64,000 nucleotides of DNA. Origin: an uncultured Fibrobacteraceae bacterium. GTDB lineage: Bacteria; Krumholzibacteriota; Krumholzibacteriia; LZORAL124-64-63. Location: assembly GCA_964420395.1 (NCBI GenBank), contig CAYQTJ010000004.1, positions 2,506-66,505 of the forward strand, read 5' to 3'. Shown here one piece after another: positions 40,553 to 59,815 of the stretch (within the stretch, counting starts at the first letter, position 1; each line of letters opens with the position of its first letter). The translations under genes and the position numbers were made by a program. Below the pieces are notes generated by a model that searched no databases, was not told the DNA's origin, and saw only the letters and a list, made by a program, of their open reading frames with translations.

Positions 40553-40553
40553 G

Positions 40554-41660: not shown

Positions 41661-42259
41661 GCCTGTGGCTGCCGGAGGGGTGCCCCGAGGCGGACGCCCG
41701 GAAGGACCGGACGGACGGTGGCGCCCTGTTCGTCGACCGCGACGGCGTGGTCATCGCGGACGCCGACTACCCGGCGGATCCGTCCGCCGTCCGGCTGCTG
41801 CCGGGCGCGGCGGCGGCCCTCGCGCGCGCCCGCGCCGCCGGCTACCTGGTGATCGGGGTGTCCAACCAGTCCGGCATCGGACGCGGTTACTACGGCGAGG
41901 CGGATTTCGCGGCGGTGCAGCGGCGCGTCGATGCGCAACTCGCCGCCGCCGGCGCCGGACTGGACGCGCTCTATTACTGTCCGCACGCCCCGGCGCAGGA
42001 CTGCCGCTGCCGCAAGCCGCGGCCCGGCCTGCTGGAGGAGGCGGCGACGCGCTTCCGGTGGCGCGCCGACCGCTCCTGGCTGGTGGGCGACAAGCTGACG
42101 GACGCGGAACTGGCGCGGGCGGCGGGGCTGCGTCCCGTTCTGGTGCTGACCGGCAAGGCGGAGGCGCGGTCCGCCGGCCTCCCGCCCGACGGGGCGGTGC
42201 TGGTGGTGGCGGATCTGGCGGAGGCGGTCTCCCGCCTCCTGAGCGGGGAGCGGGCGTGA
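41657..42259 (+). CDS. gmhB: D-glycero-D-manno-heptose-1,7-bisphosphate phosphatase (HAD-IIIA, GmhB)
   Basis: ATG overlaps the upstream stop (ATGA). ALFVDRDGVV (HAD motif I), IGVSNQSGIGRGYY (motif II), and the GmhB zinc-finger cysteines (CPHAPAQDCRCRKP). Confidence 0.8.
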   Translation: MSLWLPEGCPEADARKDRTDGGALFVDRDGVVIADADYPADPSAVRLLPGAAAALARARAAGYLVIGVSNQSGIGRGYYGEADFAAVQRRVDAQLAAAGAGLDALYYCPHAPAQDCRCRKPRPGLLEEAATRFRWRADRSWLVGDKLTDAELARAAGLRPVLVLTGKAEARSAGLPPDGAVLVVADLAEAVSRLLSGERA

Positions 42260-43482: not shown

Positions 43483-44534
43483 TCGGCGGAGCGGCGGCAG
43501 CTCCCGGCCGCGTGAGGAGCATCCTCGTGATCCGCCGGCGGGCCCTCGGAGACGCGCTGGTCACGCTGCCGGCCGTGTTGCGGCTGGCGGAGGCGTTCCC
43601 CGCGGCCCGGATCGACCTGGTCGTGGACCGCGCTTTCGCCGCGCTGCTCACCGGCCTGGCGCCGGGGCTGACGATCCTGCCGTGGCCGCCGGGGCGGGGC
43701 GAACGACCGCGCTGGATCGCCCGGCTGCGCGCGGCGCGGTACGACCTGGCGCTCGATTACCTCGGCAGCCCCCGCACGGCGCTCTGGACGGCGCTGACCG
43801 GCGCCCCGCTGCGGGTCGGCTACGCGCTGCGGGGGCGCGCCTGGGCCTACAACGTGCGCGTCCCGCGCAACCGGGACGGCGCGACGCCGCTGGCCGCCTT
43901 CGCCGGGGAGGCGTTCCTCGATCCGCTGCGGGCGCTCGGGCTGGCCCCGGCGCCGTGGCGGGCCGTTGGAGCGGCCGCCGCCCATCCGAACCCAGGCTCC
44001 GCGGGACCGTCCGGCCCGCGGATCGGCCTGGCCCTCGGCGCCACCTGGCCCGCGAAGGGGTGGCCGCTGGCGCACGCGGCCGAACTGGCGGCGCTGGCCG
44101 CGGCGGCGGGGGCGACCGTGCTGCTGCTGCCGGGGCCGGGCGAGGAGCGGCTGGCGGCCGAGTTCCGGAGCGTGGCGCCGGCGGCGGAGGTGGCGCCGCC
44201 GACCAGCCTCGTCGAACTCGCGGCGCTGCTGGCCACGCTCGACCTGCTGGTGGCCACCGATTGCGGCGCCCGTCACCTGGCCGCCGCGCTCGAGGTGCCG
44301 ACCGTGACCCTGTTCGGCCCGACCGATCCCCGGGGCTGGAACCCCGCGGATCCGCGCCATGTTGCAGCACGGACCGGCGAGTCGTGCTCGCCGTGCGATC
44401 TCACGATCTGCCCGATCCCCGGTCATCCCTGCATGACCGGCTTGACCGGGTCGCTCGTCTGGGACAAGGTGCAGGCACTGCTGGCGCGCCGCGCGGCCGC
44501 GGACGGCCGGCGCGGGGAAGGGACGGGCGCATGA
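43479..44534 (+). CDS. glycosyltransferase family 9 (LPS heptosyltransferase-like) #4
   Basis: GTGA overlap with the upstream gene. ILVIRRRALGDALVTLPAVLRLAEAFP; IGLALGATWPAKGWP; LVATDCGARHLAAALEVPTVTLFGPTDP; CSPCDLTICP. Confidence 0.75.
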   Translation: MIGGAAAAPGRVRSILVIRRRALGDALVTLPAVLRLAEAFPAARIDLVVDRAFAALLTGLAPGLTILPWPPGRGERPRWIARLRAARYDLALDYLGSPRTALWTALTGAPLRVGYALRGRAWAYNVRVPRNRDGATPLAAFAGEAFLDPLRALGLAPAPWRAVGAAAAHPNPGSAGPSGPRIGLALGATWPAKGWPLAHAAELAALAAAAGATVLLLPGPGEERLAAEFRSVAPAAEVAPPTSLVELAALLATLDLLVATDCGARHLAAALEVPTVTLFGPTDPRGWNPADPRHVAARTGESCSPCDLTICPIPGHPCMTGLTGSLVWDKVQALLARRAAADGRRGEGTGA

Positions 44535-45361
44535 CGGGGCGGAAGCAGGGGGCGACGTGGCTCGCGGCGACCCTCGTATCGGCATGGCTCGTGGCGGCGT
44601 CGGCGGGGTCGGCGTCGGCCCAGGCCGGGACCGACAGCCTGCCGGCCGGTGCGCCGGCGGCGGGGGCCGGTCCCGATTCCGCGGCCGTTGTCCCGTTCGC
44701 GCCGGGCGAGCGGCTGGTCTTCTCCATCGACTACGGACCGGTCAACGCCGGCGAGGGCACGCTGGAGGTGCGGGGGCTGGTCGAGACCGACGGGCACCCC
44801 TGCTATCTGATCGAGAGCCGTGCCTCGTCCAATCGATTCTTCTCCGCCTTCTACATGGTGCGGGACAAGGTCGTCTCGCATGTCGACGTGGCGCGCCTCT
44901 ACTCCCGCTACTTCGCGAAGCGGCTGCGGGAGGGGGAGTACCGGCAGAACATCGAGGTGCGGTTCGACCAGGTGGCCGGGAAGGCGCACTATGCCGACGG
45001 GCGGACTTTTGATACCATGCCGGGCGTCCACGACGTGCTGTCGGCCTTCTATTTCGTGCGGACGCTCGCGCTCGAGCCGGGCCGGACCTACCACGTCGAC
45101 ACCCACAGTTCGCGCAAGAACTATCCGCTGGAAGTCATCGTGCACGGGCGGGAGAGGGTGAAGGTGCCGGCGGGGGAGTTCGACTGCCTGGTGGTGGAGC
45201 CGGTGATCCTGGGCGACGGCCTGTTCCAGCACGAGGGCAGCCTGACCATCTGGCTGACCGACGACGCCCGCAAGATGCCGGTCCTCATGAAGACCAAGGT
45301 GAAGGTCGGGTCGATCGACGCCTCGCTCAAGGAGTTCGTGACGGGAGGGGCGCCGCGCTGA
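44531..45361 (+). CDS. secreted DUF3108-like protein
   Basis: ATGA overlap with the upstream gene. Signal peptide (WLAATLVSAWLVAASAGSASA). The pattern GERLVFSIDYGPVNAGEGTLEV...YLIESRASSNRFFSAFYMVRDKV...D is as in the DUF3108 beta-barrel family that is often LPS-cluster-associated. Confidence 0.55.
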   Translation: MTGRKQGATWLAATLVSAWLVAASAGSASAQAGTDSLPAGAPAAGAGPDSAAVVPFAPGERLVFSIDYGPVNAGEGTLEVRGLVETDGHPCYLIESRASSNRFFSAFYMVRDKVVSHVDVARLYSRYFAKRLREGEYRQNIEVRFDQVAGKAHYADGRTFDTMPGVHDVLSAFYFVRTLALEPGRTYHVDTHSSRKNYPLEVIVHGRERVKVPAGEFDCLVVEPVILGDGLFQHEGSLTIWLTDDARKMPVLMKTKVKVGSIDASLKEFVTGGAPR

Positions 45362-45383
45362 GGCGGGGCCCGGGGAGGGATCC

Positions 45384-46412
45384 GTGTCGTCATCGGGGAA
45401 CGACGGTCGGTCGCCTGGCCTGCCGCTGCGCGGCTGGCCGGAGGTCGACCTGGACCGGGTGCGTCGGCTCCCGTTCCAGGCGCGCCTGAACAAGGTCTCC
45501 ATCGACGACTTCGGCCGGCCGTCCGCCCCGGGCGACGGCGGCGGCGCGTGGAACCGCTGGCTCGACGGCCTGCCACGGCTGCTGGCGGCGGACAACCTGC
45601 GCCTGCTCGTGGCCCGGCTGCGGGAGGCCCGGCGCGACCGCCGCGTCATCCTCTGGCTGCTCGGCGGGCACGTCGTCAAGACCGGCCTCGCCCCCTACCT
45701 GATCGACCTGATGGATCGCGGCTACCTGACGGCCGTGGCGATGAACGGCTCGGCCTCCATCCATGACGTGGAGGCGGCGCTGTTCGGTCGCACCAGCGAG
45801 GACGTGGCGCGGAATCTCGAGGACGGCAGCTTCGGGATGGTCGCCGAAACCGGCGACTTCTTCCGCGCGGCCTACCGCGAGGCCTTCGCGGACGGATGCG
45901 GCATGGGCGAAGGGGTCGCCCGGAAGCTCGAGCGGGCGGCCGCGCCCCATCGCGACCGGAGCGTGCTGCACGGAGCCTGGCGGCGCGACCTGCCGTGCAC
46001 CGTGCACGTCGCCATCGGCACCGACATCATCCATCAGCAGCCCGGCGCCGACGGCGCGGCCATCGGCGAGTTGACGATGCGCGACTTCCGCGTGCTGGCC
46101 GAGGTGACGCGCGGCCTGGCGCCGGTCGGCGTGGTGGTCAACCTGGGCTCGGCGGTGGTCATGCCGGAGGTGTTCCTGAAGGCCTATACGGTCGCGCGCA
46201 ATCTGGGCTGTCGCCCCGACCGACTGACGACCGCCAATCTGGACATGCTCCAGCACTACCGACCGCGCGAGAACGTGCTGCAGCGCCCCACCGCGCTCGG
46301 CGGCGACGCGATCCCGCTGACCGGTCACCACGAGATCATGGTGCCGCTGCTGCACGCGCTGCTGGTCGACGCGGATGACGCCGACGCGGGCGCGCGGCGG
46401 GGGCCGGCATGA
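45384..46412 (+). CDS. hypothetical protein with deoxyhypusine-synthase-like fold features
   Basis: ILWLLGGHVVKTGLAPYLIDLMDRGYLTAVAMNGSASIHDVE resembles the DHS LGYTSN..SG...I..L.....VD.LVTTAGG.EED block. DLPCTVHVAIGTDIIHQ resembles the IPVF.PA.TDGS.GDM block. Assignment is by eye only. Confidence 0.4.
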   Translation: MSSSGNDGRSPGLPLRGWPEVDLDRVRRLPFQARLNKVSIDDFGRPSAPGDGGGAWNRWLDGLPRLLAADNLRLLVARLREARRDRRVILWLLGGHVVKTGLAPYLIDLMDRGYLTAVAMNGSASIHDVEAALFGRTSEDVARNLEDGSFGMVAETGDFFRAAYREAFADGCGMGEGVARKLERAAAPHRDRSVLHGAWRRDLPCTVHVAIGTDIIHQQPGADGAAIGELTMRDFRVLAEVTRGLAPVGVVVNLGSAVVMPEVFLKAYTVARNLGCRPDRLTTANLDMLQHYRPRENVLQRPTALGGDAIPLTGHHEIMVPLLHALLVDADDADAGARRGPA

Positions 46413-48001
46413 GGAGCCGCGGACGCGCCGACTCCGCCTGGGTGCCCGACCCGGCCTGGCTCCATCCGGACCGGGCGGCGCAGGACGCCGAGGGGATCAG
46501 CGGCGGCTTCCTGCTGCTGGTCACGCTGCTGGCGGCGGTGGTGCGGTTCTACCACCTCGGCGGGCAGCCGCTCTGGGTCGACGAGGAGATGACCTGGGCG
46601 ATGATCCGCCCCGACGCAGGGCTGTCGTTCGGCCGCCAGCTGCTCGACGAGATCCAGGGACCGCTCTATCTCGCGGCGAGCTGGCCGCTGGCGCGGGAGT
46701 TCGGGCTGTCGGAGTCGTGGGTGCGGGCGCCGGCGGCGCTGGCCGGCGTGCTGGCGGTGCCGCTGGCCGGGCTGCTCGGGCGGCGGCTGTGCGGGGCGCG
46801 CACGGGGCGCCTGCTGGCGCTCCTGCTGGCCGTCAGTCCGTTCCACCTCTGGTACAGCCAGGAGGCGCGGGGCTACAGCTTCCTGGTGCTGTTCGCGATC
46901 CTCTCGACCCTGGCCTTCCTGCGGCTCGCGGAGTCGCCGCGCGGCGGACGGGCGGCGGCCTACGCGCTGGCCGCGGCCGCGATGGCCTGGAGCAATCTGT
47001 CGGGGCTGTTCCTGATCGGGGCGCAGGCCGTGGCGGTCCTGATCGTGGTGCGTCCCCGGGGCGCGCGTGCCCGCTGGCTCTGGGTGGCCGCCTTCGGCCT
47101 GGTGGGGCTGGGGGTCCTGCCGTGGCTGCTGCGGGCGTCGGGCATCCTCGCCGTGGACCGGCTGCTGCCGGGGGCGGCGGCCGGCGCGGCGCTGAGGGGG
47201 GAAACCACCTTCAGCCCGCTGGCCCTGCCGTTCACCCTGTTCGCCTTCCTCTTCGGCTACAGCCTCGGCCCGTCGCTCGCGGAACTGCACCAGGCGGATC
47301 GCCTGGGGGTGGTGCGGGCGCACTGGCCGGTGCTGGCCGCGGCGGCCACCGCCGCCGCGGTGGTGCTCGCGGCCGGCGTGGCGCGCCTGGGTCGCCGCAC
47401 CGGGACCCTGCTCGCGCTCTGGATCCTGTTGCCGGCCGCGGCGATCAGCCTGCTGGCGCTGCAGAACGTGAAGCCGTTCAATCCCCGATACCTGGCGGCG
47501 ACCTTCCCGCTGGTGCTGCTGGTCGCGGCCCGCGGCCTGGGGGGGCTGCCACGGCGCCTGGGCCGGGCGGGCGGTTTCCTGCTCTGCGGGCTCTGCCTCT
47601 GGTCGCTCTGGGGCTACCACGGCGACCCGCGCTACGCGAAGGAGGACGTGCGGGACGCGGCGGCGTGGGTCGGGGGGCGGGCCGAAGCGGGCGATCCGGT
47701 GATCGTGCCGGTGATCACCCGGGTCTGGAACCTCTATCACCAGGGACCGGGCCGCGTCGTGCCGATGTGGGAATCGACCACGGTCGCCGATGCCGCCACC
47801 GCGCGCGCCTTCCTGGTCCCGCGGATGGCCGGCGCCGCCCACGGCTTCCTGGTGCTGTCGCGAGCCTGGGAGATCGACCCCGACGGTCGGCTGGCCGCCG
47901 CGCTGGCTAGCGAGGCGCGCGTGGTCGAAGAGGTGCGTTTCCCCGGCGTGCGGGTGATGGAGTGGAGGCGCGAGCCGCCCCGGGCGGGGGACGGGCCATG
48001 A
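46409..48001 (+). CDS. ArnT/PMT-family (GT39/GT83-type) membrane glycosyltransferase
   Basis: ATGA overlap with the upstream gene. Polytopic. The N-terminal loop YHLGGQPLWVDEEMTWAMI and FHLWYSQEARGYSF resemble the 4-amino-arabinose/Dol-P-Man-dependent transferase family. Confidence 0.7.
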   Translation: MRSRGRADSAWVPDPAWLHPDRAAQDAEGISGGFLLLVTLLAAVVRFYHLGGQPLWVDEEMTWAMIRPDAGLSFGRQLLDEIQGPLYLAASWPLAREFGLSESWVRAPAALAGVLAVPLAGLLGRRLCGARTGRLLALLLAVSPFHLWYSQEARGYSFLVLFAILSTLAFLRLAESPRGGRAAAYALAAAAMAWSNLSGLFLIGAQAVAVLIVVRPRGARARWLWVAAFGLVGLGVLPWLLRASGILAVDRLLPGAAAGAALRGETTFSPLALPFTLFAFLFGYSLGPSLAELHQADRLGVVRAHWPVLAAAATAAAVVLAAGVARLGRRTGTLLALWILLPAAAISLLALQNVKPFNPRYLAATFPLVLLVAARGLGGLPRRLGRAGGFLLCGLCLWSLWGYHGDPRYAKEDVRDAAAWVGGRAEAGDPVIVPVITRVWNLYHQGPGRVVPMWESTTVADAATARAFLVPRMAGAAHGFLVLSRAWEIDPDGRLAAALASEARVVEEVRFPGVRVMEWRREPPRAGDGP

Positions 48002-48684
48002 GCCACGATCTCTTCGCGGCGCGGGGGGGCTTCGACGCCTTCCTGGGCGACGCCGCGGGCGACCTGCCGCGCCCGGACACCGTCCCGTTCGCCGTGGGCA
48101 AGCGGCTGTTCGACCTGGCCGCCGCGCTCGGCGGCCTGCTGCTGCTGCTGCCGCTCTTCCCGTTCCTCGTGCTCCTGATCCGTCTCGACACCCCGGGGCC
48201 GATCTTCTTCCGCCAGGAGCGGGTCGGGCGGTACGGGCGCCGGTTCACCTGCTGGAAGTTCCGCTCCATGGTGTGCGATGCCGAGGCGCGCAAGCGGGAC
48301 ATCTCCTATCTCAACGAAGCCACCGGCGCCGCCTTCAAGATCAAGGACGATCCGCGCATCACCGGCGTCGGCCGGTTCATTCGGCGCAGCAGCCTCGACG
48401 AATTCCCGCAGCTGTTCAACGTCCTGCGGGGGGAGATGTCGATCGTCGGACCGCGGCCGCAGATCCCCGACGAGGTGGCACAGTACACGCCACGACAGGC
48501 CGCGCGCCTGCTCGTCAAGCCGGGGCTGACCTGCCTGTGGCAGGTGTCGGGGCGCAGCCAGCTCGATTTCGAGGAGTGGATGTCGCTGGACCTGGAATAC
48601 GTGCGGCGCCGCAGCCTCGGCCTCGACTTCTGGATCCTGGGCCGCACCCTGCCGGCGGTCATCGAGCGCAAAGGCGCGTACTAG
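47998..48684 (+). CDS. polyprenyl-phosphate sugar phosphotransferase (bacterial sugar transferase, WbaP/CpsE/PglC C-terminal-domain type)
   Basis: ATGA overlap with the upstream gene. KRLFDLAAALGGLLLLLPLFPFLVLLIRLDTPGPIFFRQERVGRYGRRFTCWKFRSMVCDAE...DDPRITGVGRFIRRSSLDEFPQLFNVLRGEMSIVGPRP is canonical. Confidence 0.8.
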   Translation: MSHDLFAARGGFDAFLGDAAGDLPRPDTVPFAVGKRLFDLAAALGGLLLLLPLFPFLVLLIRLDTPGPIFFRQERVGRYGRRFTCWKFRSMVCDAEARKRDISYLNEATGAAFKIKDDPRITGVGRFIRRSSLDEFPQLFNVLRGEMSIVGPRPQIPDEVAQYTPRQAARLLVKPGLTCLWQVSGRSQLDFEEWMSLDLEYVRRRSLGLDFWILGRTLPAVIERKGAY

Positions 48685-51797: not shown

Positions 51798-51902
51798 GTC
51801 CGGATGGCGCCGCCGCGCCGCTCAAGCCGGGGGCGGGAGGCGCGATGTACAGACGCTGGCGGTCGCGGAGCGCCTCGCCGCCGCGGAGCCGGCAGGAGTG
51901 GC

Positions 51903-52703
51903 ATGGATGAGCCGGACGAAATGTCATGGACGACCCACCCGTTCCGCCGCCACCCCGGGCGCGGCCTGGCCGGTCTCGGCGTGAGCCTCGCCGCGCTGGC
52001 GCTGGTGCAGGCGTGGGCGCGGACGGCCGCGCTCACCGGGCTGGGGGCGCTGCTGCTGGCGGTGTCGCTCTGGCCGTTCTACTTCCCCACGCGCTGGCGG
52101 GTCGACGGGACCGGCGTCGCGGCCGACTACGGGCTGTGGCGACGGCGATGGCCCTGGGAGCGTTTCCGGGCCTGCGTCCCGCTGCCGGGCGCGGTGGTGC
52201 TGACCCCCCTTCGCCCGGCCGCACCCGCTGGAGCGCTGGCGCGCGGTCGTGGTGCCGTGCCCGGACGCGGGGGAGCGGCTGCTGGCGACGCTGTCCCGGC
52301 GTCTGCCCTGCCGGGACGGGAAGGGGGGGGGTGCCGCGTGAACGCGCCCCGGTCCCAGCCGCCGGCCCTGCCCGGCGCGGCGGCGCTCGCCGAAGCGACC
52401 GGCCCTCGGCCCGCCACACTCGAGGCCGCGGACGACCTCCTGCTGGCCGAACTGGCCCTCGCGGTGCAGCGGCGCGGCCTGGCCACCCCCGCGGTGCTTT
52501 GGCTGGAGAGCCTGCGGCCGCTCTCGTTCGTCGGCGCGCAGGCGATGCACGCGCTGACCCCCTTCGTCCAACTGCTGACCAGGGGTGCCCGGTTCGAACG
52601 GCTCGCCGAGATCTTCGAGGATCGCGGGCACCTGGAGCGCTTCCTGCGCCTGATCGAGACCGCGGCGGCGGCGCCGGCCGCAAGGACGGAGGGCCCGCAG
52701 TGA
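51903..52703 (+). CDS. hypothetical protein; N-terminal two-helix membrane/bPH-like part, possibly two fused or adjacent genes
   Basis: Two hydrophobic helices, then RWRVDGTGVAADYGLWRRRWPWERF. An in-frame GTG at 52338 after a G-rich SD-like run could start a separate ~121-aa soluble protein. Ends in GTGA overlap with the next gene. Confidence 0.35.
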   Translation: MDEPDEMSWTTHPFRRHPGRGLAGLGVSLAALALVQAWARTAALTGLGALLLAVSLWPFYFPTRWRVDGTGVAADYGLWRRRWPWERFRACVPLPGAVVLTPLRPAAPAGALARGRGAVPGRGGAAAGDAVPASALPGREGGGCRVNAPRSQPPALPGAAALAEATGPRPATLEAADDLLLAELALAVQRRGLATPAVLWLESLRPLSFVGAQAMHALTPFVQLLTRGARFERLAEIFEDRGHLERFLRLIETAAAAPAARTEGPQ

Positions 52704-54553
52704 GCGCCCCCGCCGGCGGTCCGCACCCGGCCGCGCCGCCCCCCGCCGCCTGCGACGTCATTCTGGTCACCGACTGCGGATCGACCTCGACGAAGGCGAT
52801 CCTCGTCGAGCGCCGCGACGGACGGTTCCGCCTGACCGCCCGGGGCGAGGCGCCGACGACCGTGGAGGCCCCCTGGGAGGACGTCACGCGCGGCGTGCGC
52901 AACGCGATCGCCGAAGTGTCCGAACTGTCCGGCCGGCGGCTCCTCGACCCCGCGACCGGCGCCCTGCTCCGCCCGGCGCGCGACGGCGAGGGGGTGGACC
53001 TCTTCCTCAGCACCAGCAGCGCCGGCGGCGGGCTGCAGATGCTGGTGGCGGGAGTCGTGCGCAACATGACCGCCGAGAGCGCCGAGCGGGCCGCGCTGGG
53101 CGCCGGGGCCATCGTGATGGACGTCATCGCGTTCAACGATCCGCGCCGGCCGCACGAGCAGATCGAGCGGATCCGGCAGCTTCGTCCCGACATGATCCTG
53201 CTCAGCGGCGCCGTCGACGGGGGCAGCACCAGCCACGTGGTCAAGCTGGCGGAGCTGGTCGCCGCGGCCGAGCCGCGGCCGCGCCTCGGCGGGGCGGGCG
53301 AGCTGCCGGTCGTCTACGCGGGCAACGTCGACGCGCGGGCCGCGGTCGCCGCCGCCTTCGGCGGCCGGGTGGACCTCGTGATGGTGGACAACCTGCGGCC
53401 GGTCCTGGAGCGGGAGAACCTCGGTCCGGCGCGGGAGAAGATCCACGACGTCTTCCTGGAGCACGTCATGGCGCGGGCGCCCGGCTACCTCGCCCTGATG
53501 GCCATGTGCGACCATCCGATCATGCCTACGCCCGCGGCCGTCGGCATGATGGTGCAGTCGATCTCGGCCGAGGGGGGGCGCGACGTGCTGGCGGTCGACA
53601 TCGGCGGCGCCACGACCGATGTCTTCTCCGTCTTCGACGGGCAGTTCAACCGCACGGTCAGCGCGAACCTGGGGATGAGCTACAGCGTGGCCAACGTGCT
53701 GCGCAGCGCGGGGCTGGAGAACGTGAAGCGGTGGGTGCCGGCGCCGATCGAGGAGCGCGACCTGCGGGATCGCCTGCTCAACAAGATGATCCGCCCCACG
53801 ACGCTCCCGCAGCTGATGAGCGACCTGCTCGTGGAGCAGGCGGTGGCCCGGGAGGCGCTGCGCCTCGCCTTCGCGCAGCACCGGGCTTTCGCCACGCGAC
53901 GCCTGATGGGGGTCCACCGGCGGCGCACCATCGGCGACGCCTTCCGGCAGGACGACGAGGACCAGAGCCTCGTCAACCTGCTGGACCTCGACCTGCTCAT
54001 CGGATCGGGCGGGGTGCTCTCGCACGCGCCGCGCCGCGCGCAGGCGGCGCTGATGCTGGTGGACGCCTTCCTGCCCGAGGGGCTGACCAGGCTGGCCGTG
54101 GATTCGGTGTTCATGCTGCCGCAACTCGGGGTGCTCAACGGCGTCCACCCGGTCGCGGCGCACGAGGTATTGGCGAGCGACTGCCTGATCCCGCTGGGCT
54201 CCTGCCTGGCGCCCGTCGGTCCGGCGCTCCGGCCCGGCAGCCCGCTGGCGCGCGTGACGCTGGCGCTGGAGAGCGGCGCCACGCTGGAGGCGCGGGTGCT
54301 GGCGGGGGAAGTCGAACTGCTGCCGCTGGCGCGCGGCACGCGGGCGCGGCTGCGGGTGGAGCCGGGCCGCGGCTTCGACGTCGGGCGCGGCCCCGGCACC
54401 CCGCTCGAGACCGATGTCGCGGGGGGCGAGGTGGGCCTGATCCTGGACGGCCGCGGCCGGCCCCTGGCCTGGCCGGCGCGCGAGAGCGAGCGCCTCGATT
54501 GCCTGCGGCGGTGGCATGCCGCGCTCGACATCTACCCCGAGGGAGCCGCGTGA
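52700..54553 (+). CDS. GlmL/MutL-like ASKHA-superfamily ATPase (glutamate-mutase L-component-like) with C-terminal extension
   Basis: VILVTDCGSTSTKAILVE (phosphate-1 motif as in GlmL LIDFGSTFTK) ... VLAVDIGGATTDVFSV (phosphate-2/adenosine motif). The first 258 aa of the 875-aa ORF 51926..54553 are rejected because they overlap the upstream gene in another frame. Confidence 0.5.
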   Translation: MSAPAGGPHPAAPPPAACDVILVTDCGSTSTKAILVERRDGRFRLTARGEAPTTVEAPWEDVTRGVRNAIAEVSELSGRRLLDPATGALLRPARDGEGVDLFLSTSSAGGGLQMLVAGVVRNMTAESAERAALGAGAIVMDVIAFNDPRRPHEQIERIRQLRPDMILLSGAVDGGSTSHVVKLAELVAAAEPRPRLGGAGELPVVYAGNVDARAAVAAAFGGRVDLVMVDNLRPVLERENLGPAREKIHDVFLEHVMARAPGYLALMAMCDHPIMPTPAAVGMMVQSISAEGGRDVLAVDIGGATTDVFSVFDGQFNRTVSANLGMSYSVANVLRSAGLENVKRWVPAPIEERDLRDRLLNKMIRPTTLPQLMSDLLVEQAVAREALRLAFAQHRAFATRRLMGVHRRRTIGDAFRQDDEDQSLVNLLDLDLLIGSGGVLSHAPRRAQAALMLVDAFLPEGLTRLAVDSVFMLPQLGVLNGVHPVAAHEVLASDCLIPLGSCLAPVGPALRPGSPLARVTLALESGATLEARVLAGEVELLPLARGTRARLRVEPGRGFDVGRGPGTPLETDVAGGEVGLILDGRGRPLAWPARESERLDCLRRWHAALDIYPEGAA

Positions 54554-55665
54554 GCCACGCCTATTATCCCGGCCTGCGGGCCAGCGAGTGGGTCGCCCTG
54601 CGGCGGGAGCGCTTCCTGCCGGTCGAGGGCGAGGTCCTGGTGCGCGAAGGGCAGACGGTCGCGTCGGACACCGTGGTGGCGCGCACGATCCTGCGGGGGA
54701 CGCTCACGCCGGTGAACGTGGCGGCCAGTCTGGGGGTCGAGCCGGGCGAGGTCAACGAGGCGCTCCTGAAGCGCGCCGGCGAGGCGGTGTGCCAGGGCGA
54801 GCTGCTCGCCCGCACGAAGGGGGTCTTCGGGCTGTTGCGGGCCGAGTGCCGGGCGCCGGTCACCGGCACGATCGCCACGGCCTCGGTCGCGACCGGTCAG
54901 GTGATGATCGAGGGGCCGCCGCTGCCGGTGGAGGTCAAGGCGCACCTGGCCGGCACGGTGGTGTCGGTGCGGCCGGGGCGCGGGGCGACGATCGCCGCCG
55001 CGGGCACCTGGATCCAGGGGATCTTCGGCATCGGCGGCGAGGCGTGGGGGGCGATCGTCCTGGGGGTCTCGGCGCCGAGCGAACGGCTGACGGAGAAGGA
55101 GATCACCCCCGAGCTGCAGGGCAAGATCGTCGTGGGGGGCGCGCTGGTCACGCGTGAGGCGCTGGCGCGCGCCGCGCAACTCGGGATCGGCGCGATCGTC
55201 ACCGGCGGCGTGCACGCGCTCGATCTGGGCGAATTCATGGGTTGCGAGATCGGCGCCGGCGTGACCGGCGCCGAGCAGGTCGGCCTGACCCTGATCGTGA
55301 CCGAGGGTTTCGGCGAGATCGCCATGGCGCGCCGCACCTTCCGGCTGCTCGGCCAGCGCGAGGGCTTCCTGGCGAGCGTGAGCGGAGCCACCCAGATCCG
55401 GTCCGGGGTGCTGCGCCCCGAGATCATCGTGCCGGCGGCGACGGGGGAGCGCGGCGCGGCGGACGCCGTGGCGGCCGACGGCATCGCCGTCGGCACCTCC
55501 GTGCGGCTGGTGCGCGCGCCGCACTTCGGACAGCTCGGGACGGTGGTGGCCCTGCCGCCCGACCCGTGCGCGGTGGCGAGCGGCGCGGTCGTGCGGATCC
55601 TCGAGGCCGAACTGGAATCGGGCGTGCGGGTCACCGTGCCGCGCAGCAACGTCGAACTGTTCTGA
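54550..55665 (+). CDS. hypothetical soluble protein, coupled to the GlmL-like gene
   Basis: GTGA overlap. Gly-rich segments KIVVGGALV...GIGAIVTGGVHALDLGEFMG. No family recognised. Confidence 0.4.
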   Translation: MSHAYYPGLRASEWVALRRERFLPVEGEVLVREGQTVASDTVVARTILRGTLTPVNVAASLGVEPGEVNEALLKRAGEAVCQGELLARTKGVFGLLRAECRAPVTGTIATASVATGQVMIEGPPLPVEVKAHLAGTVVSVRPGRGATIAAAGTWIQGIFGIGGEAWGAIVLGVSAPSERLTEKEITPELQGKIVVGGALVTREALARAAQLGIGAIVTGGVHALDLGEFMGCEIGAGVTGAEQVGLTLIVTEGFGEIAMARRTFRLLGQREGFLASVSGATQIRSGVLRPEIIVPAATGERGAADAVAADGIAVGTSVRLVRAPHFGQLGTVVALPPDPCAVASGAVVRILEAELESGVRVTVPRSNVELF

Positions 55666-55686
55666 GCCGCTCCGCGAGGAGGCCGC

Positions 55687-56505
55687 GTGGACGCCTGGTT
55701 TGCGCCGGAAAGCTGGAACCTGGCGCTGTTCGCGCTGGTCGTGGGCGGGACGATCATGCTTTCCATCCGCCGGGCCGAACGGGGCCGGCCGCCCCGCGTG
55801 CGCCGCCTGCCGGGCGTGGACGCGATCGCGGAGGCGGTGGGCCGGGCGGTGGAACTGGGGCGGCCGGTGCTGTTCGTGCCCGGCTCGCGCGACCTCGACA
55901 ACGTGCAGACGGTGGCCGGTCTGGCGCTGCTGGGCGAGGTGGCCGGACTGGCCGCCCGGCTGGAGTGCCAGCTCCAGGTTCCGACCAGCCGGAGCCTCGT
56001 GCTGGCGGCCGCCCGCGACGCCTGCCGCACCGCCTTCATCTCCGCCGGCCGCGCGGAGGCCTGGCGTGACGAGACCGTCAGCTACGTCTCGGACGACCAG
56101 CTCGGGCTGGCGGCGCGCGTGGACGGGATGATCGCCCGCGACCGCCCCGCGGCCTGCCTGCTGTTCGGCTTCTTCGGCGCGGAATCGCTGCTGATGGCCG
56201 AGGCGGGCGCGCAGGCGGGGGCGATCCAGATCGCCGGCACCGCGGAGAAGAGCCAGTTGCCGCTGTTCGTGGCGGCGTGCGATTACACCCTCATCGGCGA
56301 GGAGCTCTTCGCCGCCAGCGCCTGCCTGACGGGTGAGCCGGCGCTGCTCGGCACGCTGCGCGGACAGGATCTGGGCAAGGCGTTCGCGGCGGCCTGCCTG
56401 GTCGCCGGCGCTCTGCTCGCCACGGCCGCCACGCTCACGGACTGGGCGCCGCTGGTGGCGCTGCGCGCCGCCTTCCTGCGCCTCTTCGAGACGGGGGTCG
56501 GCTGA
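55687..56505 (+). CDS. hypothetical membrane-anchored protein (N- and C-terminal helices)
   Basis: GTG after GAGGAGG. WNLALFALVVGGTIMLSI helix, then a soluble domain and a C-terminal helix. Confidence 0.4.
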   Translation: MDAWFAPESWNLALFALVVGGTIMLSIRRAERGRPPRVRRLPGVDAIAEAVGRAVELGRPVLFVPGSRDLDNVQTVAGLALLGEVAGLAARLECQLQVPTSRSLVLAAARDACRTAFISAGRAEAWRDETVSYVSDDQLGLAARVDGMIARDRPAACLLFGFFGAESLLMAEAGAQAGAIQIAGTAEKSQLPLFVAACDYTLIGEELFAASACLTGEPALLGTLRGQDLGKAFAAACLVAGALLATAATLTDWAPLVALRAAFLRLFETGVG

Positions 56506-56506
56506 C

Positions 56507-57202
56507 ATGCGCCGTCGCCTCCCGCGGATCGTGGTCGGGATCGTCGGCAGCCTGCTGATCCTGAAGGCGTTCGTGCCGCGGCCGGGCGCGGCCGGTCCCA
56601 CCGAGTGGCAGGCGTTCTTCGCCTACGTCGACGAGAACTTCTCCGTCTGGTTCAACATCCTTGCCGTGTTCGCCTTCGGCCTGGGGGCCGCGAGCCTCCT
56701 GAGGGTCCACGGCGGGCGGGTGCTGCGGCGGCAGCGCGACTGGCCCTATTCCCTGGCGGGGCTGACCGCCTTCGGGGTGGTGCTGATCGCCGGGCTGGCG
56801 CGCGTCGGCGGGGATCCCTCGGACGCCGGCTCGACCGTGCACTGGATCTTCCGGGCCGTGATCAGCCCGTTGCAGGCGAGCATCTTCGCCCTGCTCGCCT
56901 TCTACATCGCCTCCGCCTCCTACCGCGCGTTCCGCGTCCGGTCGCGCGAGGCGGCGGCCCTGCTGGTGGCGGCGCTCATCATCCTGGCGGGGCGCACGCC
57001 GTTCGGCCACTCGCTGACCGACTGGCTGCCGGCGTCGCTGTCGTTCCTGCGCCTGGAGAACGTGGCGCTGTGGGTGGTGCAGGTCCCCAACACGGCCGGC
57101 CAGCGGGCGATCACCATCGGCATCGCGCTCGGGACCGTGGCGATGTCGCTGCGACTGCTGCTGGGGATCGAGCGCGGCCTGCTCGGGCGGGGGGACTCGT
57201 GA
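56507..57202 (+). CDS. hypothetical polytopic membrane protein (about 5-6 helices)
   Basis: ATG 1 nt after the upstream stop. Consecutive hydrophobic helices. Confidence 0.45.
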   Translation: MRRRLPRIVVGIVGSLLILKAFVPRPGAAGPTEWQAFFAYVDENFSVWFNILAVFAFGLGAASLLRVHGGRVLRRQRDWPYSLAGLTAFGVVLIAGLARVGGDPSDAGSTVHWIFRAVISPLQASIFALLAFYIASASYRAFRVRSREAAALLVAALIILAGRTPFGHSLTDWLPASLSFLRLENVALWVVQVPNTAGQRAITIGIALGTVAMSLRLLLGIERGLLGRGDS

Positions 57203-58083
57203 GCGGGGGGGGCGAACGGCCGGTGCGGGGATCGGCGCTCTCGTCGCTCGACCGGCGCTGGGTCCATGCGGCGCTGGCCGGGGCGATCCTGCTCTCGATC
57301 GTGGCGCGGATCCGCTTTCCCGACACCCCGTCGCCGCTCGTGCAGGGGCTGTACGACCGGGTGGAGAGCCTGCCGGCGGGAGCGCCGATCGTGCTCTCGC
57401 TCGACTATTCACCGAATTCCCGTCCGGAGCTGGAGCCGATGGCGCGCGCGCTGGCGCGCCACGCGCTGCTGCGCGGCCACCGCCTGATCCTGCTCTCGGT
57501 CTGGGACACCGGCAACGCGATGATCGAGGAGCTGCGGACCGACGTGCTGGCCGTCGAGTTCCCCGACCGGCGGGAGGGGGCCGACTGGGTGGCGCTGGGC
57601 TACAAGGCCGGGAACGAGATCCTGATCAACGCCATCCGGGACAACTTCGGCTCCATGTACCGCACCGACCTGCGCGACAGCCTGCTCGCGTCGCTGCCGG
57701 CCCTCGCGGGGGTGCGCGGCCTCTCGGACTGCGGGCTGATCGTGTCGCTGTCCGGCGGGTCGCCCGGCCTGAAGGAGTGGATCCTGTTCGCCGGCGACGT
57801 GACCGGCGTGCCGGTGGCCGGGGGCTGCACCGGGGTCGGGACGCCGGAGTTCCTGCCCTATTTCCCGCGGCAGTTGATCGGTCTGCTGGGCGGACTGAAG
57901 GGGGCCGCGGAGTACGAGGCGGCCCTCGAGCGCGGGCATCCCGACTTCCCCCAGCGCACCATGGCCGCCACGGACGGCATGGGACCGCAGTCGGTCGCGC
58001 ACACGGTCATCATCGTCTTCATCCTCCTGGGCAACGCCGGCTACCTGATCGAGCGGCGGCGCCGGCGGCGGGGGTCGCCGTGA
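57199..58083 (+). CDS. hypothetical membrane-anchored protein (architecture resembles 55687..56505)
   Basis: GTGA overlap. N-terminal helix AALAGAILLSIVARI, soluble domain, C-terminal helix VIIVFILLGNAGYLI followed by RRRRRR. Confidence 0.4.
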   Translation: MSGGGERPVRGSALSSLDRRWVHAALAGAILLSIVARIRFPDTPSPLVQGLYDRVESLPAGAPIVLSLDYSPNSRPELEPMARALARHALLRGHRLILLSVWDTGNAMIEELRTDVLAVEFPDRREGADWVALGYKAGNEILINAIRDNFGSMYRTDLRDSLLASLPALAGVRGLSDCGLIVSLSGGSPGLKEWILFAGDVTGVPVAGGCTGVGTPEFLPYFPRQLIGLLGGLKGAAEYEAALERGHPDFPQRTMAATDGMGPQSVAHTVIIVFILLGNAGYLIERRRRRRGSP

Positions 58084-58772
58084 GCGGCGGGCTGCACCCG
58101 AGCGGGAGCCTGGAGGTGTGGGTCGGCGCCTGCCTGACGCTGATGGTCTTCAGCTTCCTGTGGCGGGACAATCCCTTCTACAAGTTCGCCGAGCACGTGC
58201 TCGTCGGCGCGTCCGCCGCCTACGTGATGGTGATCAACTTCTGGAGCACCCTCTGGCCGAACGCGATCGTCAAGCTCTGGCCGGCCGCGGAGCGGGTGGT
58301 CAATCCGGAGGCGGTACCGGGGTCGCCCGAGCCGGTGGTGCTGGTGCCGGTCGCGCTGGGCCTGCTGATGCTCTGCCGCCTGCACCCGCGGACCGCCGCC
58401 TGGAGCCGCTGGCCGACCGCCTTCGCGATCGGCGTCAGCGCCGGCACCAACCTGCTGCGCTACCTGCAATCGGATTTCCTCCTGCAACTGCGCGCGGCGG
58501 CGGCGCCGAGCCTGGTGGTCCTGCACGGGGGCCGGCTGCAGCTGGGGGAGAGCCTGTCCAACATCGTGCTGCTGGTCGGTACGCTGTGCGGCCTCGCCTA
58601 CTTCACGTACACCCGCGAGCACCGCGGCCCGCTGGGCCGGATGGCCCGCTTCGGCATCGGTTTCATGATGGTGACTTTCGGAACCTCCTTCGGCTACACC
58701 GTGATGGCGCGTATATCCTTGCTGGTAAGCAGGTTGCACTTTCTCGTCGGGAACTGGCTCGGCCTGATCTGA
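58080..58772 (+). CDS. hypothetical polytopic membrane protein (about 6 helices)
   Basis: GTGA overlap with the upstream gene. Hydrophobic helices throughout. Confidence 0.45.
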   Translation: MSGGLHPSGSLEVWVGACLTLMVFSFLWRDNPFYKFAEHVLVGASAAYVMVINFWSTLWPNAIVKLWPAAERVVNPEAVPGSPEPVVLVPVALGLLMLCRLHPRTAAWSRWPTAFAIGVSAGTNLLRYLQSDFLLQLRAAAAPSLVVLHGGRLQLGESLSNIVLLVGTLCGLAYFTYTREHRGPLGRMARFGIGFMMVTFGTSFGYTVMARISLLVSRLHFLVGNWLGLI

Positions 58773-58891
58773 ACCCCGCCGCCGGCCGGGCGCCGGCCGG
58801 CGCTACAGGTCGCGCGCCGGGCGGCCGAAGATAAAGTTGACGGCCCAGGGTCCGTATCCATAGACTGGCGCCCCGCGTCAGAGAGGGCTTC

Positions 58892-59815
58892 ATGCTGGAT
58901 TCCGGCACGAATATCGAGCGGCAGATTCAATTCTATCAGCGCAAGTACGAGCTGAATCCGCACTCGCGCGCCTTCGCGCCGCTGGCCGACCTCTACCGCA
59001 AGGCAGGACGGCTCGAGGAGGCGCTGGAGGTGCTGGAGGCGGGACTCGCCGAGCATCCCCAGTACGTTTCCGCGCTGGTGATCATGGCCCGTTGCCACGT
59101 CGACGCGGGACGCGCGGCCGAGTCCGGCGAGGCGTTCACGCGCGTGCTGGCGCTCGACCCGGACAATCTCGTCGCGCTCAAGAGCCTCGCCGAGATGGCC
59201 CTGGCCGGCGGTGACGACGCCCGCGGCGCCTCGTTGCTCGAGCGCGTCGTCTTCCTCGACCCCACGGACGAACCCGCGGCGGAGCGTCTCGAAACGTTGC
59301 GCGGCGGGGCGGTCGCCTCGCCGGCCGGCCCCGAGGAGACCGGGCAGGCCGCCGAGCCTCCCGAGGCGCCGGAGCACGCCGCCGTGGCGCTCCCCCCGCC
59401 CGCCGCCGAGGCGGAGCATGCGCCGCAGACCGCCGTCGCGACAGCGCCGGAGGCGGTGGCGGAAGCCGCCGCGGCCGCGCCGACGCCGGACGGCGAAGGG
59501 GTGTCGGACCGGGAGGCCGTCTCTCCCGTGCAGGAGCGCCAGTCGTTCGCCACGCGGACCCTGGCGGAGATCTACCTGGCCCAGGGCTATCGGGAGAAGG
59601 CCCTGACGGTCCTGCGCGAGATCCTGGCGCGCCATCCGGACCGCGAGGACGTCGCGGCGAAGGTCGCGGAAATCGAGAGCCAGCCGCCCGCCGCCGTTCC
59701 CGCCGGCCCCTCCGCGCCGCCGTCGGCCGCTTCGCCGCCCCCACCGGCGACCGAGAACCGGCTGCACTTCGAGGCGTGGCTCGGCCGCGTGGCCAAGCCG
59801 GAAGAGGGCCCTTGA
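58892..59815 (+). CDS. TPR-repeat protein
   Basis: Multiple 34-aa TPR-like units (..YRKAGRLEEALEVLEAGLAEHPQYVSALVIMARCHVDAGR..; LAEIYLAQGYREKALTVLREIL) with a Pro/Ala-rich linker. Confidence 0.65.
   Translation: MLDSGTNIERQIQFYQRKYELNPHSRAFAPLADLYRKAGRLEEALEVLEAGLAEHPQYVSALVIMARCHVDAGRAAESGEAFTRVLALDPDNLVALKSLAEMALAGGDDARGASLLERVVFLDPTDEPAAERLETLRGGAVASPAGPEETGQAAEPPEAPEHAAVALPPPAAEAEHAPQTAVATAPEAVAEAAAAAPTPDGEGVSDREAVSPVQERQSFATRTLAEIYLAQGYREKALTVLREILARHPDREDVAAKVAEIESQPPAAVPAGPSAPPSAASPPPPATENRLHFEAWLGRVAKPEEGP

What the first reader, a model, noticed from the sequence alone, without database searches (positions are those of the whole stretch)
51804..58772. Uncharacterised translationally coupled seven-gene operon: GlmL/MutL-like ASKHA ATPase plus alternating membrane-anchored and polytopic membrane proteins
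The operon sits directly downstream of an unusually long acyl-CoA dehydrogenase, separated by a 7-nt gap. Seven ORFs are chained by 4-nt or 1-nt stop/start overlaps: 52700/52703, 54550/54553, 56505/56507, 57199/57202 and 58080/58083. The proteins are: a two-helix bPH-like membrane protein, possibly fused to a small soluble protein; a 617-aa ASKHA ATPase with GlmL-like DCGSTSTKA and DIGGATTDV motifs plus a C-terminal extension; a Gly-rich soluble protein; then two repeats of a single-pass membrane protein followed by a polytopic membrane protein, suggesting an internal duplication of a two-gene membrane module. None of the non-ATPase components matches a family recognisable by eye. Tight coupling implies a stoichiometric membrane complex energised or chaperoned by an actin-fold ATPase. 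The complex could be a transporter, an assembly system or a metabolic membrane module, possibly linked to acyl-CoA chemistry through the upstream ACAD.
Basis: partly seen in the sequence, partly recalled or inferred. Interest (0 to 1): 0.75.

Follow-up and report, generated by a model that had tools for sequence, protein, structure and literature searches.

The report
Conserved uncharacterised ATPase-plus-membrane-complex operon
This is a real operon for an unstudied inner-membrane protein complex and an actin-fold ATPase module, conserved in gene order across about ten named bacterial groups, with no known function, solved structure or paper behind it.

Summary
GC3 periodicity, start/stop overlaps and cross-phylum conservation support a co-directional, tightly packed gene set at 51.9-58.8 kb.

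Corrections:
- The first ORF is a frameshift chimera caused by an extra C in a C-run at 52204-52209. It merges two ancestral genes, so the ancestral operon has eight genes.
- The two "single-pass + polytopic" pairs are not a duplication (hhalign probabilities 1.7% and 0.2%).
- The acyl-CoA dehydrogenase (ACAD) is a lineage-specific neighbour (6 of 58 loci), separated by about 105 nt rather than 7.

Conservation:
- The core is a four-gene membrane module: DUF6754 followed by three families with no Pfam hit. It is collinear in 63 of 64 genome loci, from about ten named bacterial groups.
- A MutL/GlmL-type ASKHA ATPase and a 371-aa three-domain protein sit directly upstream in 24 of 58 loci.
- o6-o7 and MutL-o3 fusions occur elsewhere.

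No component has a sequence relative in the PDB, a defence-system match or a literature record. Databases mislabel the ATPase as "glutamate mutase L".

Best reading, at low confidence: an ASKHA-ATPase-driven envelope transport or assembly machine. The rival is a reactivase-style chaperone that services a membrane enzyme. The function remains unproven.

The parts
51903..52341 (+). o1a: small protein with two transmembrane helices and a soluble tail. In this window it is disrupted by a +1 C in the homopolymer at 52204-52209, so the C-terminus is read in the +1 frame and ends at TGA 52339-52341.
   Evidence: Frame translations and comparison with L002/L005. DNA alignment shows CCCCCC here against CCCCC in three relatives. 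AGGAG lies before ATG 51903. Two hydrophobic helices at residues 54-94 of the long ORF. Found in only 8 of 58 genome loci.
52338..52703 (+). o1b: small conserved protein of about 120 aa. The conserved core is ...RGLAxPAxLxLESxRPLxFLGxQxMHFLxPF...LExRG..E.L...IE. It lies immediately upstream of the ATPase.
   Evidence: Alignment A7 across Planctomycetota, Gemmatimonadota, Marinimicrobia and Acidobacteriota loci. Present in 23 of 58 genome loci and in most o3-anchored loci that contain MutL. No Pfam or PADLOC match.
52700..54553 (+). o2: MutL/GlmL-family ASKHA ATPase (617 aa) with a clade-specific conserved C-terminal extension of about 125 aa.
   Evidence: PF13941 E 1.2e-120, 403.7 bits. Below the NCBIfam GlmL and TIGR01319 cutoffs. 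D25CGSTxTK32, D300xGGATxD307 and G437G438 are invariant in 32 orthologues, with 50-88% identity to the window protein and 55-64% for most cross-phylum orthologues. No PDB sequence relative.
54550..55665 (+). o3: soluble 371-aa three-domain protein. The domains are an N-terminal barrel-sandwich hybrid, a central swivelling beta/beta/alpha domain and a C-terminal KOW/SH3-like barrel. The loop G279-A-T-Q-I-R-A-G-V-x-R-P-E291 is almost invariant.
55687..56505 (+). o4: DUF6754 protein. It has an N-terminal transmembrane helix, a cytoplasmic Rossmann/SIS-like alpha/beta domain of about 200 aa and C-terminal transmembrane helices.
56507..57202 (+). o5: polytopic membrane protein (231 aa, about 6 transmembrane helices).
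   Evidence: Hydropathy. Alignment A5 with R140, R200 and other invariant residues. No Pfam or PDB match. Collinear after o4 in 63 of 64 loci.
57199..58083 (+). o6: membrane protein (294 aa). It has a transmembrane helix, an extracytoplasmic domain of about 220 aa, a second transmembrane helix and an Arg-rich cytoplasmic tail.
   Evidence: Hydropathy and charge distribution. Alignment A4. No Pfam or PDB match. 2,838 representatives at 50% identity. A relative carries a CARDB Ig-like insertion, which fits an extracytoplasmic location. Fused to o7 in three representatives.
58080..58772 (+). o7: polytopic membrane protein (230 aa, about 5-6 transmembrane helices). It is the last gene of the operon.
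   Evidence: Hydropathy. Alignment A3 with D30, N31, E38, Q136 and R211 invariant. No Pfam or PDB match. A promoter-like site at 58837-58866 follows it, ahead of the TPR gene.

Best explanation
The operon encodes a two-module envelope machine.

Module 1 is a four-subunit inner-membrane complex:
- o4 (DUF6754), whose cytoplasmic Rossmann/SIS-like domain carries a conserved ligand-binding crest.
- o5 and o7, both polytopic.
- o6, which exposes a domain of about 220 aa to the periplasm.

Module 2 is cytoplasmic:
- A catalytically intact MutL/GlmL-type ASKHA ATPase (o2).
- Its obligate partner o3, which has hybrid-barrel, swivelling and KOW-like domains and an invariant Arg-rich flexible loop.
- A small accessory protein (o1b).

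I propose that o2/o3 dock on the cytoplasmic face of the membrane module, most plausibly on the o4 domain. They would convert ATP binding and hydrolysis into a conformational cycle that moves or assembles an envelope substrate across or at the inner membrane.

Shown: the gene set, its conservation and collinearity, the topology, the domain folds and the intact ATPase motifs.

Inferred: physical contact between the two modules, the direction of energy coupling and the nature of the substrate. A phosphorylated sugar or lipid-linked ligand is only a weak hint from fold matches.
For: - Coding is real: GC3 is 0.93-0.95.
- Translational coupling is present.
- o4-o5-o6-o7 are collinear in 63 of 64 genome loci. 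The loci are labelled Zixibacteria, Eisenbacteria, Gemmatimonadota, Planctomycetota, Ignavibacteria, Marinimicrobia (Neomarinimicrobiota), Cloacimonadota, Caldithrix and Acidobacteriota, among others.
- MutL-o3 lies directly upstream on the same strand in 24 of 58 loci, and in another arrangement within 10 kb in 4 more.
- In the reverse test anchored on o3, MutL is present in 41 of 54 loci with room and all four membrane genes in 16 of 36.
- Fusions support contacts within each module. o6-o7 is fused in three independent representatives, and MutL-o3 is fused in a Marinimicrobia locus.
- The ASKHA phosphate-1, phosphate-2 and adenosine motifs are invariant.
- Invariant residues of o4 sit on the C-terminal edge of its parallel beta-sheet.
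- Extracytoplasmic Ig-like decorations occur in relatives: FN3 on o4 and CARDB in o6.
- Flanking genes are variable and housekeeping, and there is no defence-system hit.
Against: - No precedent was found here for a MutL/hydantoinase-clade ASKHA ATPase that energises a membrane transporter.
- In about half of the loci the two modules are not adjacent. Some genomes show MutL-o3 or o3 alone within 10 kb, so coupling may be loose or facultative.
- No structure or complex prediction was possible for o2, o5, o6 or o7.
- No substrate clue comes from the neighbourhood.
Confidence: 0.35

Rival explanations
1. Reactivase or chaperone model. o2, helped by o3, acts like GlmL/MutL, DdrA or EutA. It would use ATP to pry open a Rossmann-like subunit, here the cytoplasmic domain of o4, to load, exchange or remove a cofactor or ligand. 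The o4-o7 complex would then be a membrane enzyme that is maintained, not powered, by the ATPase.
For: - o2 is a full-length PF13941 member.
- One paper describes MutL/GlmL as a chaperone involved in the reactivation of glutamate mutase (PMC4682846).
- o4 has a Rossmann-like domain with an invariant pocket.
- In Zixibacteria and Ignavibacteria loci, a single MutL-o3 pair sits next to two tandem paralogous membrane modules. That suits a shared servicing factor.
- The ATPase pair is often unlinked from the membrane module.
Against: - No cofactor-binding motif is conserved. There is no invariant His/Cys pattern in o5-o7, no B12 motif and no flavin or Fe-S signature.
- No profile similarity exists between o2 and o4.
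- Reactivase activity of GlmL is poorly documented in the held literature.
Confidence: 0.25
2. Membrane-anchored cytomotive or scaffolding system. o2 would polymerise or act as an actin-fold platform anchored by bitopic and polytopic partners, as in MreB-MreC-MreD or PilM-PilN-PilO. The role would be envelope morphogenesis or assembly of a surface structure.
For: - The operon logic of an ASKHA protein followed by bitopic and polytopic membrane proteins resembles mreBCD and pilMNO (my own knowledge).
- Periplasmic domains and Ig-like decorations are present.
- The genomic context is housekeeping.
Against: - o2 belongs to the hydantoinase/GlmL branch. A review of the actin superfamily lists 'glutamate mutase' among the enzymes, not among the polymer-forming families (PMC5597319).
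- No Pfam match to MreB, FtsA or PilM.
- Its obligate partner o3 has no counterpart in those systems.
Confidence: 0.1
3. Two unrelated systems, a soluble MutL-o3 enzyme pair and a DUF6754 membrane complex, that merely tend to lie next to each other.
For: 26 of 58 DUF6754-anchored loci have neither MutL nor o3 within reach. 20 of 36 o3-anchored loci lack the membrane module. Some loci have o3 alone.
Against: The same order and strand (o1b-MutL-o3-o4-o5-o6-o7) recurs across loci labelled Krumholzibacteria-like, Planctomycetota, Gemmatimonadota, Acidobacteriota, Marinimicrobia and others, at 40-60% protein identity. Every other flanking gene varies. The cluster is translationally coupled in the window.
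Confidence: 0.1
4. A metabolic membrane module tied to acyl-CoA or B12-mutase chemistry, as the first reader proposed for the ACAD and as the database names 'glutamate mutase L' and 'methylaspartate mutase' imply.
For: An ACAD lies upstream in the window. o2 orthologues are named glutamate mutase L or methylaspartate mutase in public records.
Against: - The ACAD is adjacent in only 6 of 58 loci, all close relatives.
- No recurrent mutase-like neighbour appears in about 160 loci.
- o2 scores 221 bits against a 475-bit cutoff for GlmL, and 154 against 204 for TIGR01319.
- acc genes nearby are lineage-specific.
Confidence: 0.03

Closest known systems
GlmL/MutL, accessory protein of coenzyme-B12-dependent glutamate mutase (Pfam PF13941)
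   Same: o2 aligns end to end with the Pfam model (residues 21-494, 403.7 bits). It shares the ASKHA ATPase core and the inserted Rossmann-like segment, which gives a weak B12-binding-domain hit at residues 141-209.
   Different: It scores below the NCBIfam GlmL, Or-4 and TIGR01319 cutoffs. It has a conserved C-terminal extension of about 125 aa. In about 160 loci it is never next to a mutase. Instead it is paired with o3 and o1b, and often with four membrane proteins.
Diol dehydratase reactivase DdrAB and ethanolamine ammonia-lyase reactivase EutA
   Same: These are ASKHA ATPases of a related branch that act on a client enzyme rather than phosphorylating a small molecule. From my own knowledge, DdrA contains a 'swivelling' domain and works by exchanging a Rossmann-like subunit. 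Here a swivelling domain (o3) and a Rossmann-like domain (o4) are also present, but on separate proteins.
Rnf / Na+-NQR ion-translocating complexes
   Same: The resemblance is in subunit architecture only:
- two roughly 230-aa six-helix subunits;
- a subunit with a transmembrane helix and a periplasmic domain;
- a subunit with a transmembrane helix and a cytoplasmic Rossmann-like domain.
   Different: No Pfam or NCBIfam hit to any Rnf or Nqr subunit. o5 and o7 are not homologous to each other. There is no invariant Cys or His to ligate Fe or flavin. An ATPase takes the place of an NADH or ferredoxin module.
PilM-PilN-PilO and MreB-MreC-MreD
   Same: An actin-fold protein is encoded together with bitopic and polytopic inner-membrane partners in one operon.
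   Different: The ASKHA branch is different. No sequence or profile similarity was detected. The partner o3 is unique to this system.
Swivelling beta/beta/alpha domain proteins (PEP-utilizer phosphohistidine domain, RraA, aconitase X small subunit)
   Different: There is no conserved histidine. The conserved motif is GATQIRAGVxRPE, so a phosphohistidine relay is excluded.

Membership tests
Pfam MutL (PF13941) | Full-length match above the gathering score (27 bits) | tested here: met
   403.7 bits, E 1.2e-120, residues 21-494 against profile positions 1-449 of 450
ASKHA ATPase superfamily | Phosphate-1 (DxGxT), phosphate-2 (DxGGxT) and adenosine (GxG) motifs | tested here: met
   D25-C-G-S-T-x-T-K32, D300-x-G-G-A-T-x-D307 and G437-G438 are invariant in 32 orthologues
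GlmL, methylaspartate mutase accessory protein (NCBIfam NF040745 equivalog; TIGR01319 subfamily) | Score above the curated cutoff (475 and 204.05 bits) | tested here: not met
   221 bits and 154.1 bits
GlmL, methylaspartate mutase accessory protein | Encoded between or next to the glutamate mutase subunit genes glmS and glmE | tested here: not met
   No recurrent neighbour other than o1a, o1b, o3 and o4-o7 in neighbour clustering of the 80 genome-derived loci and of 14 o3-only metagenome loci. The window's flanks are ACAD and TPR. No explicit GlmE profile was run.
Pfam DUF6754 (PF20539) | Match above the gathering score (27 bits) | tested here: met
   o4: 315.9 bits, E 2.1e-94, profile positions 4-250 of 257
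Rnf / Na+-NQR complexes | Subunits recognised by the Rnf/Nqr family models | tested here: not met
   No hits for o3-o7 in Pfam or NCBIfam. Only a structural match of the o3 N-terminal domain to the RnfC and NqrA hybrid barrel.
Rnf / Na+-NQR complexes | Conserved cofactor ligands (intramembrane Cys of NqrD/E; the flavinylated Thr motif of NqrC/RnfG) | tested here: not met
   No invariant Cys or His in o5 or o7. The invariant residues of o6 include no such motif.
Biotinyl/lipoyl carrier domains | Strictly conserved modified Lys in an (A/V)MKM or DKA hairpin | tested here: not met
   The hairpin reads A-R-T-K-G. K90 is replaced by R, N or P in several orthologues. Only some relatives trip PF00364 or PF13375.
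PEP-utilising enzyme mobile (phosphohistidine) domain | Conserved phospho-accepting His in the GGxTSHAA motif | tested here: not met
   No invariant His in o3. The conserved loop is GATQIRAGVxRPE.
Known anti-phage defence systems (PADLOC-DB) | Any component matching a defence-system profile | tested here: not met
   No hit at E<=0.01 for seven proteins
   Indirect support only: collinearity in 63 of 64 loci, translational coupling, and o6-o7 and MutL-o3 fusions.

The most novel reading that the evidence does not exclude
This is the first example of a membrane transport or assembly machine powered by a hydantoinase/GlmL-branch ASKHA ATPase rather than by a P-loop, P-type or rotary ATPase or by ion gradients. 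It would use a dedicated swivelling-domain coupling protein (o3) and four membrane subunit families with no described relatives. It would be a housekeeping envelope function in the FCB, PVC and Acidobacteriota lineages sampled here.
Probability: 0.25. Interest if true: 0.9.

Novelty: categorically new. Interest (0 to 1): 0.72.

Why it matters
**Scale of the families.** Thousands of proteins belong to this cluster. The o3 search scored 6,344 proteins at E<=1e-3. The DUF6754 search scored 3,533, among 8,000 candidates in each case. The o6 family has 2,838 representatives at 50% identity.

**Conservation.** Identity across phyla is 40-60%. That level is usually seen for core cellular machinery.

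**Gap in knowledge.**
- o3, o5, o6 and o7 have no Pfam entry, and o1b matched none.
- None of the components has a sequence relative among solved structures.
- No paper in the held library mentions the DUF6754 family.
- The ATPase is systematically misannotated as a glutamate mutase component.

**What follows.** Defining the function would fill a gap in the envelope biology of Planctomycetota, Gemmatimonadota, Zixibacteria, Ignavibacteria and related, mostly uncultured phyla. It could also reveal a new way of coupling ATP hydrolysis to a membrane process. The cluster occurs in MAGs labelled with cultured genera (Gimesia, Singulisphaera, Phycisphaera, Caldithrix), so if the cultured strains carry it too, the question can be tested directly.

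Tried and rejected
- **Internal duplication.** hhalign of o4 vs o6 gave probability 1.7%, and o5 vs o7 gave 0.2%. Rejected.
- **Mimicry between modules.** hhalign of MutL vs o4 and of o3 vs o6 found nothing.
- **PDB sequence and profile searches.** All components were searched. The only result was weak KOW and hybrid-barrel hits for o3.
- **Pfam on family members.** Every member of the o5, o6 and o7 alignments was scanned. Only scattered sub-threshold noise came back.
- **NCBIfam.** Only below-cutoff GlmL-type hits for o2.
- **PADLOC.** Nothing.
- **Literature.** Searches for DUF6754, PF13941, TIGR01319, GlmL and 'glutamate mutase L' found nothing on this system.
- **AFDB Foldseek.** The library was unavailable.
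- **Acetyl-CoA carboxylase link.** accB and accC lie near the window operon, and accA follows o3 in some low-GC loci. Both patterns are lineage-specific synteny. Rejected.
- **Biotin/lipoyl-type modified lysine in o3.** K90 is not strictly conserved. Rejected.
- **Phosphohistidine relay in o3.** There is no conserved His. Rejected.
- **Source contig look-up.** An exact-protein look-up failed. Cluster members instead point to Candidatus Krumholzibacteriia.
Full report
**1. The observation**

The window is 66-78% G+C in 2-kb bins, and 72-75% across the operon, so long spurious ORFs abound. A GC3 frame plot resolves them. On the + strand, 52700-54553, 54550-55665, 55687-56505, 56507-57202, 57199-58083 and 58080-58772 each show GC3 of 0.93-0.95 with GC2 near 0.5.

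The junctions are as reported: GTGA overlaps at 52700, 54550, 57199 and 58080. Two details differ. o4/o5 is TGA-C-ATG, a 1-nt spacer. o3/o4 is a 21-nt gap containing GGAGG.

Start codons are backed by family alignments. The consensus N-termini are MAHAYTPGL for o3 and MxRxxPL for o5.

A promoter-like site at 58837-58866 separates o7 from the downstream TPR gene.

**2. The first ORF is a chimera**

The 299-aa ORF at 51804-52703 has lower GC3 (0.86) and a local frame switch. Close relatives (L002, L005) carry two genes in different frames. One is o1a, about 144 aa with two transmembrane helices. The other is o1b, about 125 aa.

In the window, the conserved o1a C-terminus (PPFARPHPLERWRAVVVPCP...) is read in the +1 frame and ends at TGA 52339-52341. 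A DNA alignment shows one extra C in the run at 52204-52209, compared with three relatives. This is either a homopolymer assembly error or a genuine frameshift.

o1b begins at GTG 52338, another GTGA overlap. ATG 51903 is preceded by AGGAG at 51894-51898. It matches the N-terminus seen in relatives, so the gap to the ACAD is about 105 nt.

The ancestral operon therefore has eight genes.

**3. What the proteins are**

- **o2** is a full-length Pfam MutL (PF13941) member (E 1e-120). It falls below the NCBIfam cutoffs for GlmL (221 against 475 bits) and TIGR01319 (154 against 204). Thirty-two orthologues are 50-88% identical to the window protein, and most cross-phylum orthologues are 55-64% identical. 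The ASKHA phosphate-1, phosphate-2 and adenosine motifs are invariant, and the C-terminal extension of about 125 aa is conserved.

  - The loop GATQIRAGVxRPE is essentially invariant and has low pLDDT, so it is probably flexible.
  - There is no conserved His, and the hairpin Lys (K90) is not strictly conserved.

- **o4** is Pfam DUF6754 (E 2e-94). Its AF2 model (pLDDT 78) shows an N-terminal transmembrane helix, a six-stranded parallel alpha/beta domain and C-terminal helices.
  - The roughly 60 invariant residues cluster in the loops after each beta-strand. That is the usual ligand-binding crest of such folds.
  - The positive-inside rule places this domain in the cytoplasm. Relatives with a signal peptide and FN3 ahead of the first helix agree.

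- **o5** (about 6 helices) and **o7** (about 5-6 helices) are polytopic.

- **o6** has a transmembrane helix, a domain of about 220 aa, a second helix and an Arg-rich tail. That arrangement implies a periplasmic domain. A relative with a CARDB Ig-like insertion supports this.

- o5, o6 and o7 match nothing in Pfam, NCBIfam or the PDB.

- o4 vs o6 and o5 vs o7 show no profile similarity. The proposed internal duplication is not supported.

**4. Conservation elsewhere**

A scan of one genome per species, using a DUF6754 alignment, found at least 590 loci. Eighty were retrieved. They carry the labels Zixibacteria, Eisenbacteria, Gemmatimonadota, Planctomycetota, Ignavibacteria, Neomarinimicrobiota, Cloacimonadota, Caldithrix and Acidobacteriota, among others.

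| Test, anchored on DUF6754 in genome loci | Result |
|---|---|
| o5-o6-o7 collinear directly downstream, of loci with at least 3.3 kb downstream | 63 of 64 |
| MutL-o3 directly upstream on the same strand, of loci with at least 3.6 kb upstream | 24 of 58 |
| MutL-o3 in another arrangement | 4 of 58 |
| Only one of MutL or o3 | 4 of 58 |
| Neither MutL nor o3 | 26 of 58 |
| o1b present | 23 of 58 |
| o1a present | 8 of 58 |
| ACAD present | 6 of 58 |
| Loci with more than one DUF6754 copy | 22 of 80 |

The loci with extra DUF6754 copies are mostly labelled Zixibacteria or Ignavibacteria, and carry tandem paralogous o4-o7 sets.

In the reverse test, 80 metagenome loci were anchored on o3. MutL was present in 41 of 54 loci with room, and all four membrane genes in 16 of 36. 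Some loci had MutL-o3 or o3 alone.

Neighbour clustering found no other recurrent gene.

Fusions occur within each module. o6-o7 is fused in three independent 50%-identity representatives, with an extra helix in the linker. MutL-o3 is fused in a Marinimicrobia locus, in frame and with no stop codon.

The o6 family alone has 2,838 representatives at 50% identity.

The ACAD, TPR, aroQ-efp-accB-accC and upstream glycan genes are shared only with the window's close relatives. These appear to be Candidatus Krumholzibacteriia.

**5. Mechanism**

What is shown:
- a conserved four-subunit membrane module with cytoplasmic and periplasmic domains;
- a conserved, catalytically intact ASKHA ATPase with an obligate three-domain partner;
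- frequent, order-preserving linkage of the two modules across phyla.

What is inferred: the two modules work together.

I favour an ATP-driven conformational machine acting on an envelope substrate (confidence 0.35). The o3 swivelling domain and its Arg loop would couple the ATPase to the cytoplasmic domain of o4.

[quoted passage not shown] On that reading o2/o3 service a membrane enzyme, loading or exchanging a ligand in the o4 pocket. This fits the single MutL-o3 pair that sits next to tandem paralogous membrane modules.

Three readings are less likely:
- A cytoskeletal role (0.1). A review of the actin superfamily lists 'glutamate mutase' among the enzymes rather than the polymer formers (PMC5597319).
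- Independence of the two modules (0.1).
- A link to acyl-CoA or B12-mutase metabolism (0.03).

**6. Comparison with known systems and novelty**

o2 is a member of Pfam MutL and of the ASKHA superfamily. It is not a GlmL orthologue, because it fails both the score cutoffs and the genomic-context test.

The overall subunit architecture loosely recalls Rnf/Nqr. No subunit is homologous to an Rnf or Nqr subunit, and no cofactor ligands are conserved.

No defence-system match was found. No sequence relative has a solved structure. No paper in the held library mentions DUF6754, PF13941 or TIGR01319.

Public records label the o2 orthologues 'glutamate mutase L' or 'methylaspartate mutase'. The context shows this is misleading.

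I rate the system as lying outside every described kind. The caveat is that its function is inferred only from comparative genomics and two predicted structures.

Noticed in passing
window 18631-23562 and 23800-28725: Two tandem paralogous proteins of about 1,640 aa. Each has a Peptidase_C25 (gingipain-like) domain, FG-GAP repeats and a C-terminal FlgD_ig domain.
   Followed up: no
window 40434-48684: A run of envelope-glycan genes: two Glyco_transf_9 heptosyltransferase-like genes, DUF3108, an ArgZ-like gene, PMT_2 and Bac_transf. It lies upstream of the PhzF-like gene and the ACAD. Part of it (ArgZ-like, PMT_2, Bac_transf) recurs in the close relative L002.
   Followed up: partly
window 52204-52209: A run of six C where three relatives have five. 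It frameshifts o1a and creates the apparent 299-aa fusion ORF. A run of nine G at 52323-52331 lies just downstream. The relative L004 shows several split genes. Together these suggest homopolymer errors in this group of assemblies.
   Followed up: yes
L095, L098, L107, L122, L133, L153, L161 (metagenome loci): In these loci o3 stands alone, without MutL or DUF6754 within reach. In L095, L098 and L161 it is followed by a 277-278-aa protein that looks like an outer-membrane beta-barrel (C-terminal ...GIGFEF), then accA, then a DUF4388 protein. L107 and L153 show the barrel-like gene and accA. L122 and L133 were checked only for accA.
   Followed up: partly
L001/L043 (Zixibacteria CP070824), L016, L017, L022, L053 and others: Two or three tandem paralogous copies of the o4-o5-o6-o7 module per locus. 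In several of these loci a single MutL-o3 pair is encoded divergently upstream.
   Followed up: partly
L084 7656-11122 (Armatimonadota-labelled metagenome contig): A 23S_rRNA_IVP-family gene is inserted between MutL and o3. No DUF6754 module lies within 10 kb. The flanking genes are for polysaccharide export and glycosyltransferases.
   Followed up: no
proteins P0408, P0414, P0417, P0420, P0445, P0472-P0475: Public records name o2 orthologues 'glutamate mutase L', 'methylaspartate mutase' or 'GlmL-related ornithine degradation protein'. No retrieved locus with an o2 orthologue had a recurrent mutase neighbour. The contexts of these particular proteins were not examined. This looks like systematic over-annotation.
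   Followed up: partly
protein P0362 (838 aa) and P0249, P0301, P0320, P0386: Some o6 homologues carry insertions of 100-560 aa at one site, between about residues 111 and 124 of the periplasmic domain. The largest contains a CARDB Ig-like domain.
   Followed up: partly
window 58892-59815: A TPR protein with a low-complexity Pro/Ala-rich linker lies downstream of the operon. It is conserved only in close relatives and is preceded by its own promoter-like site.
   Followed up: partly
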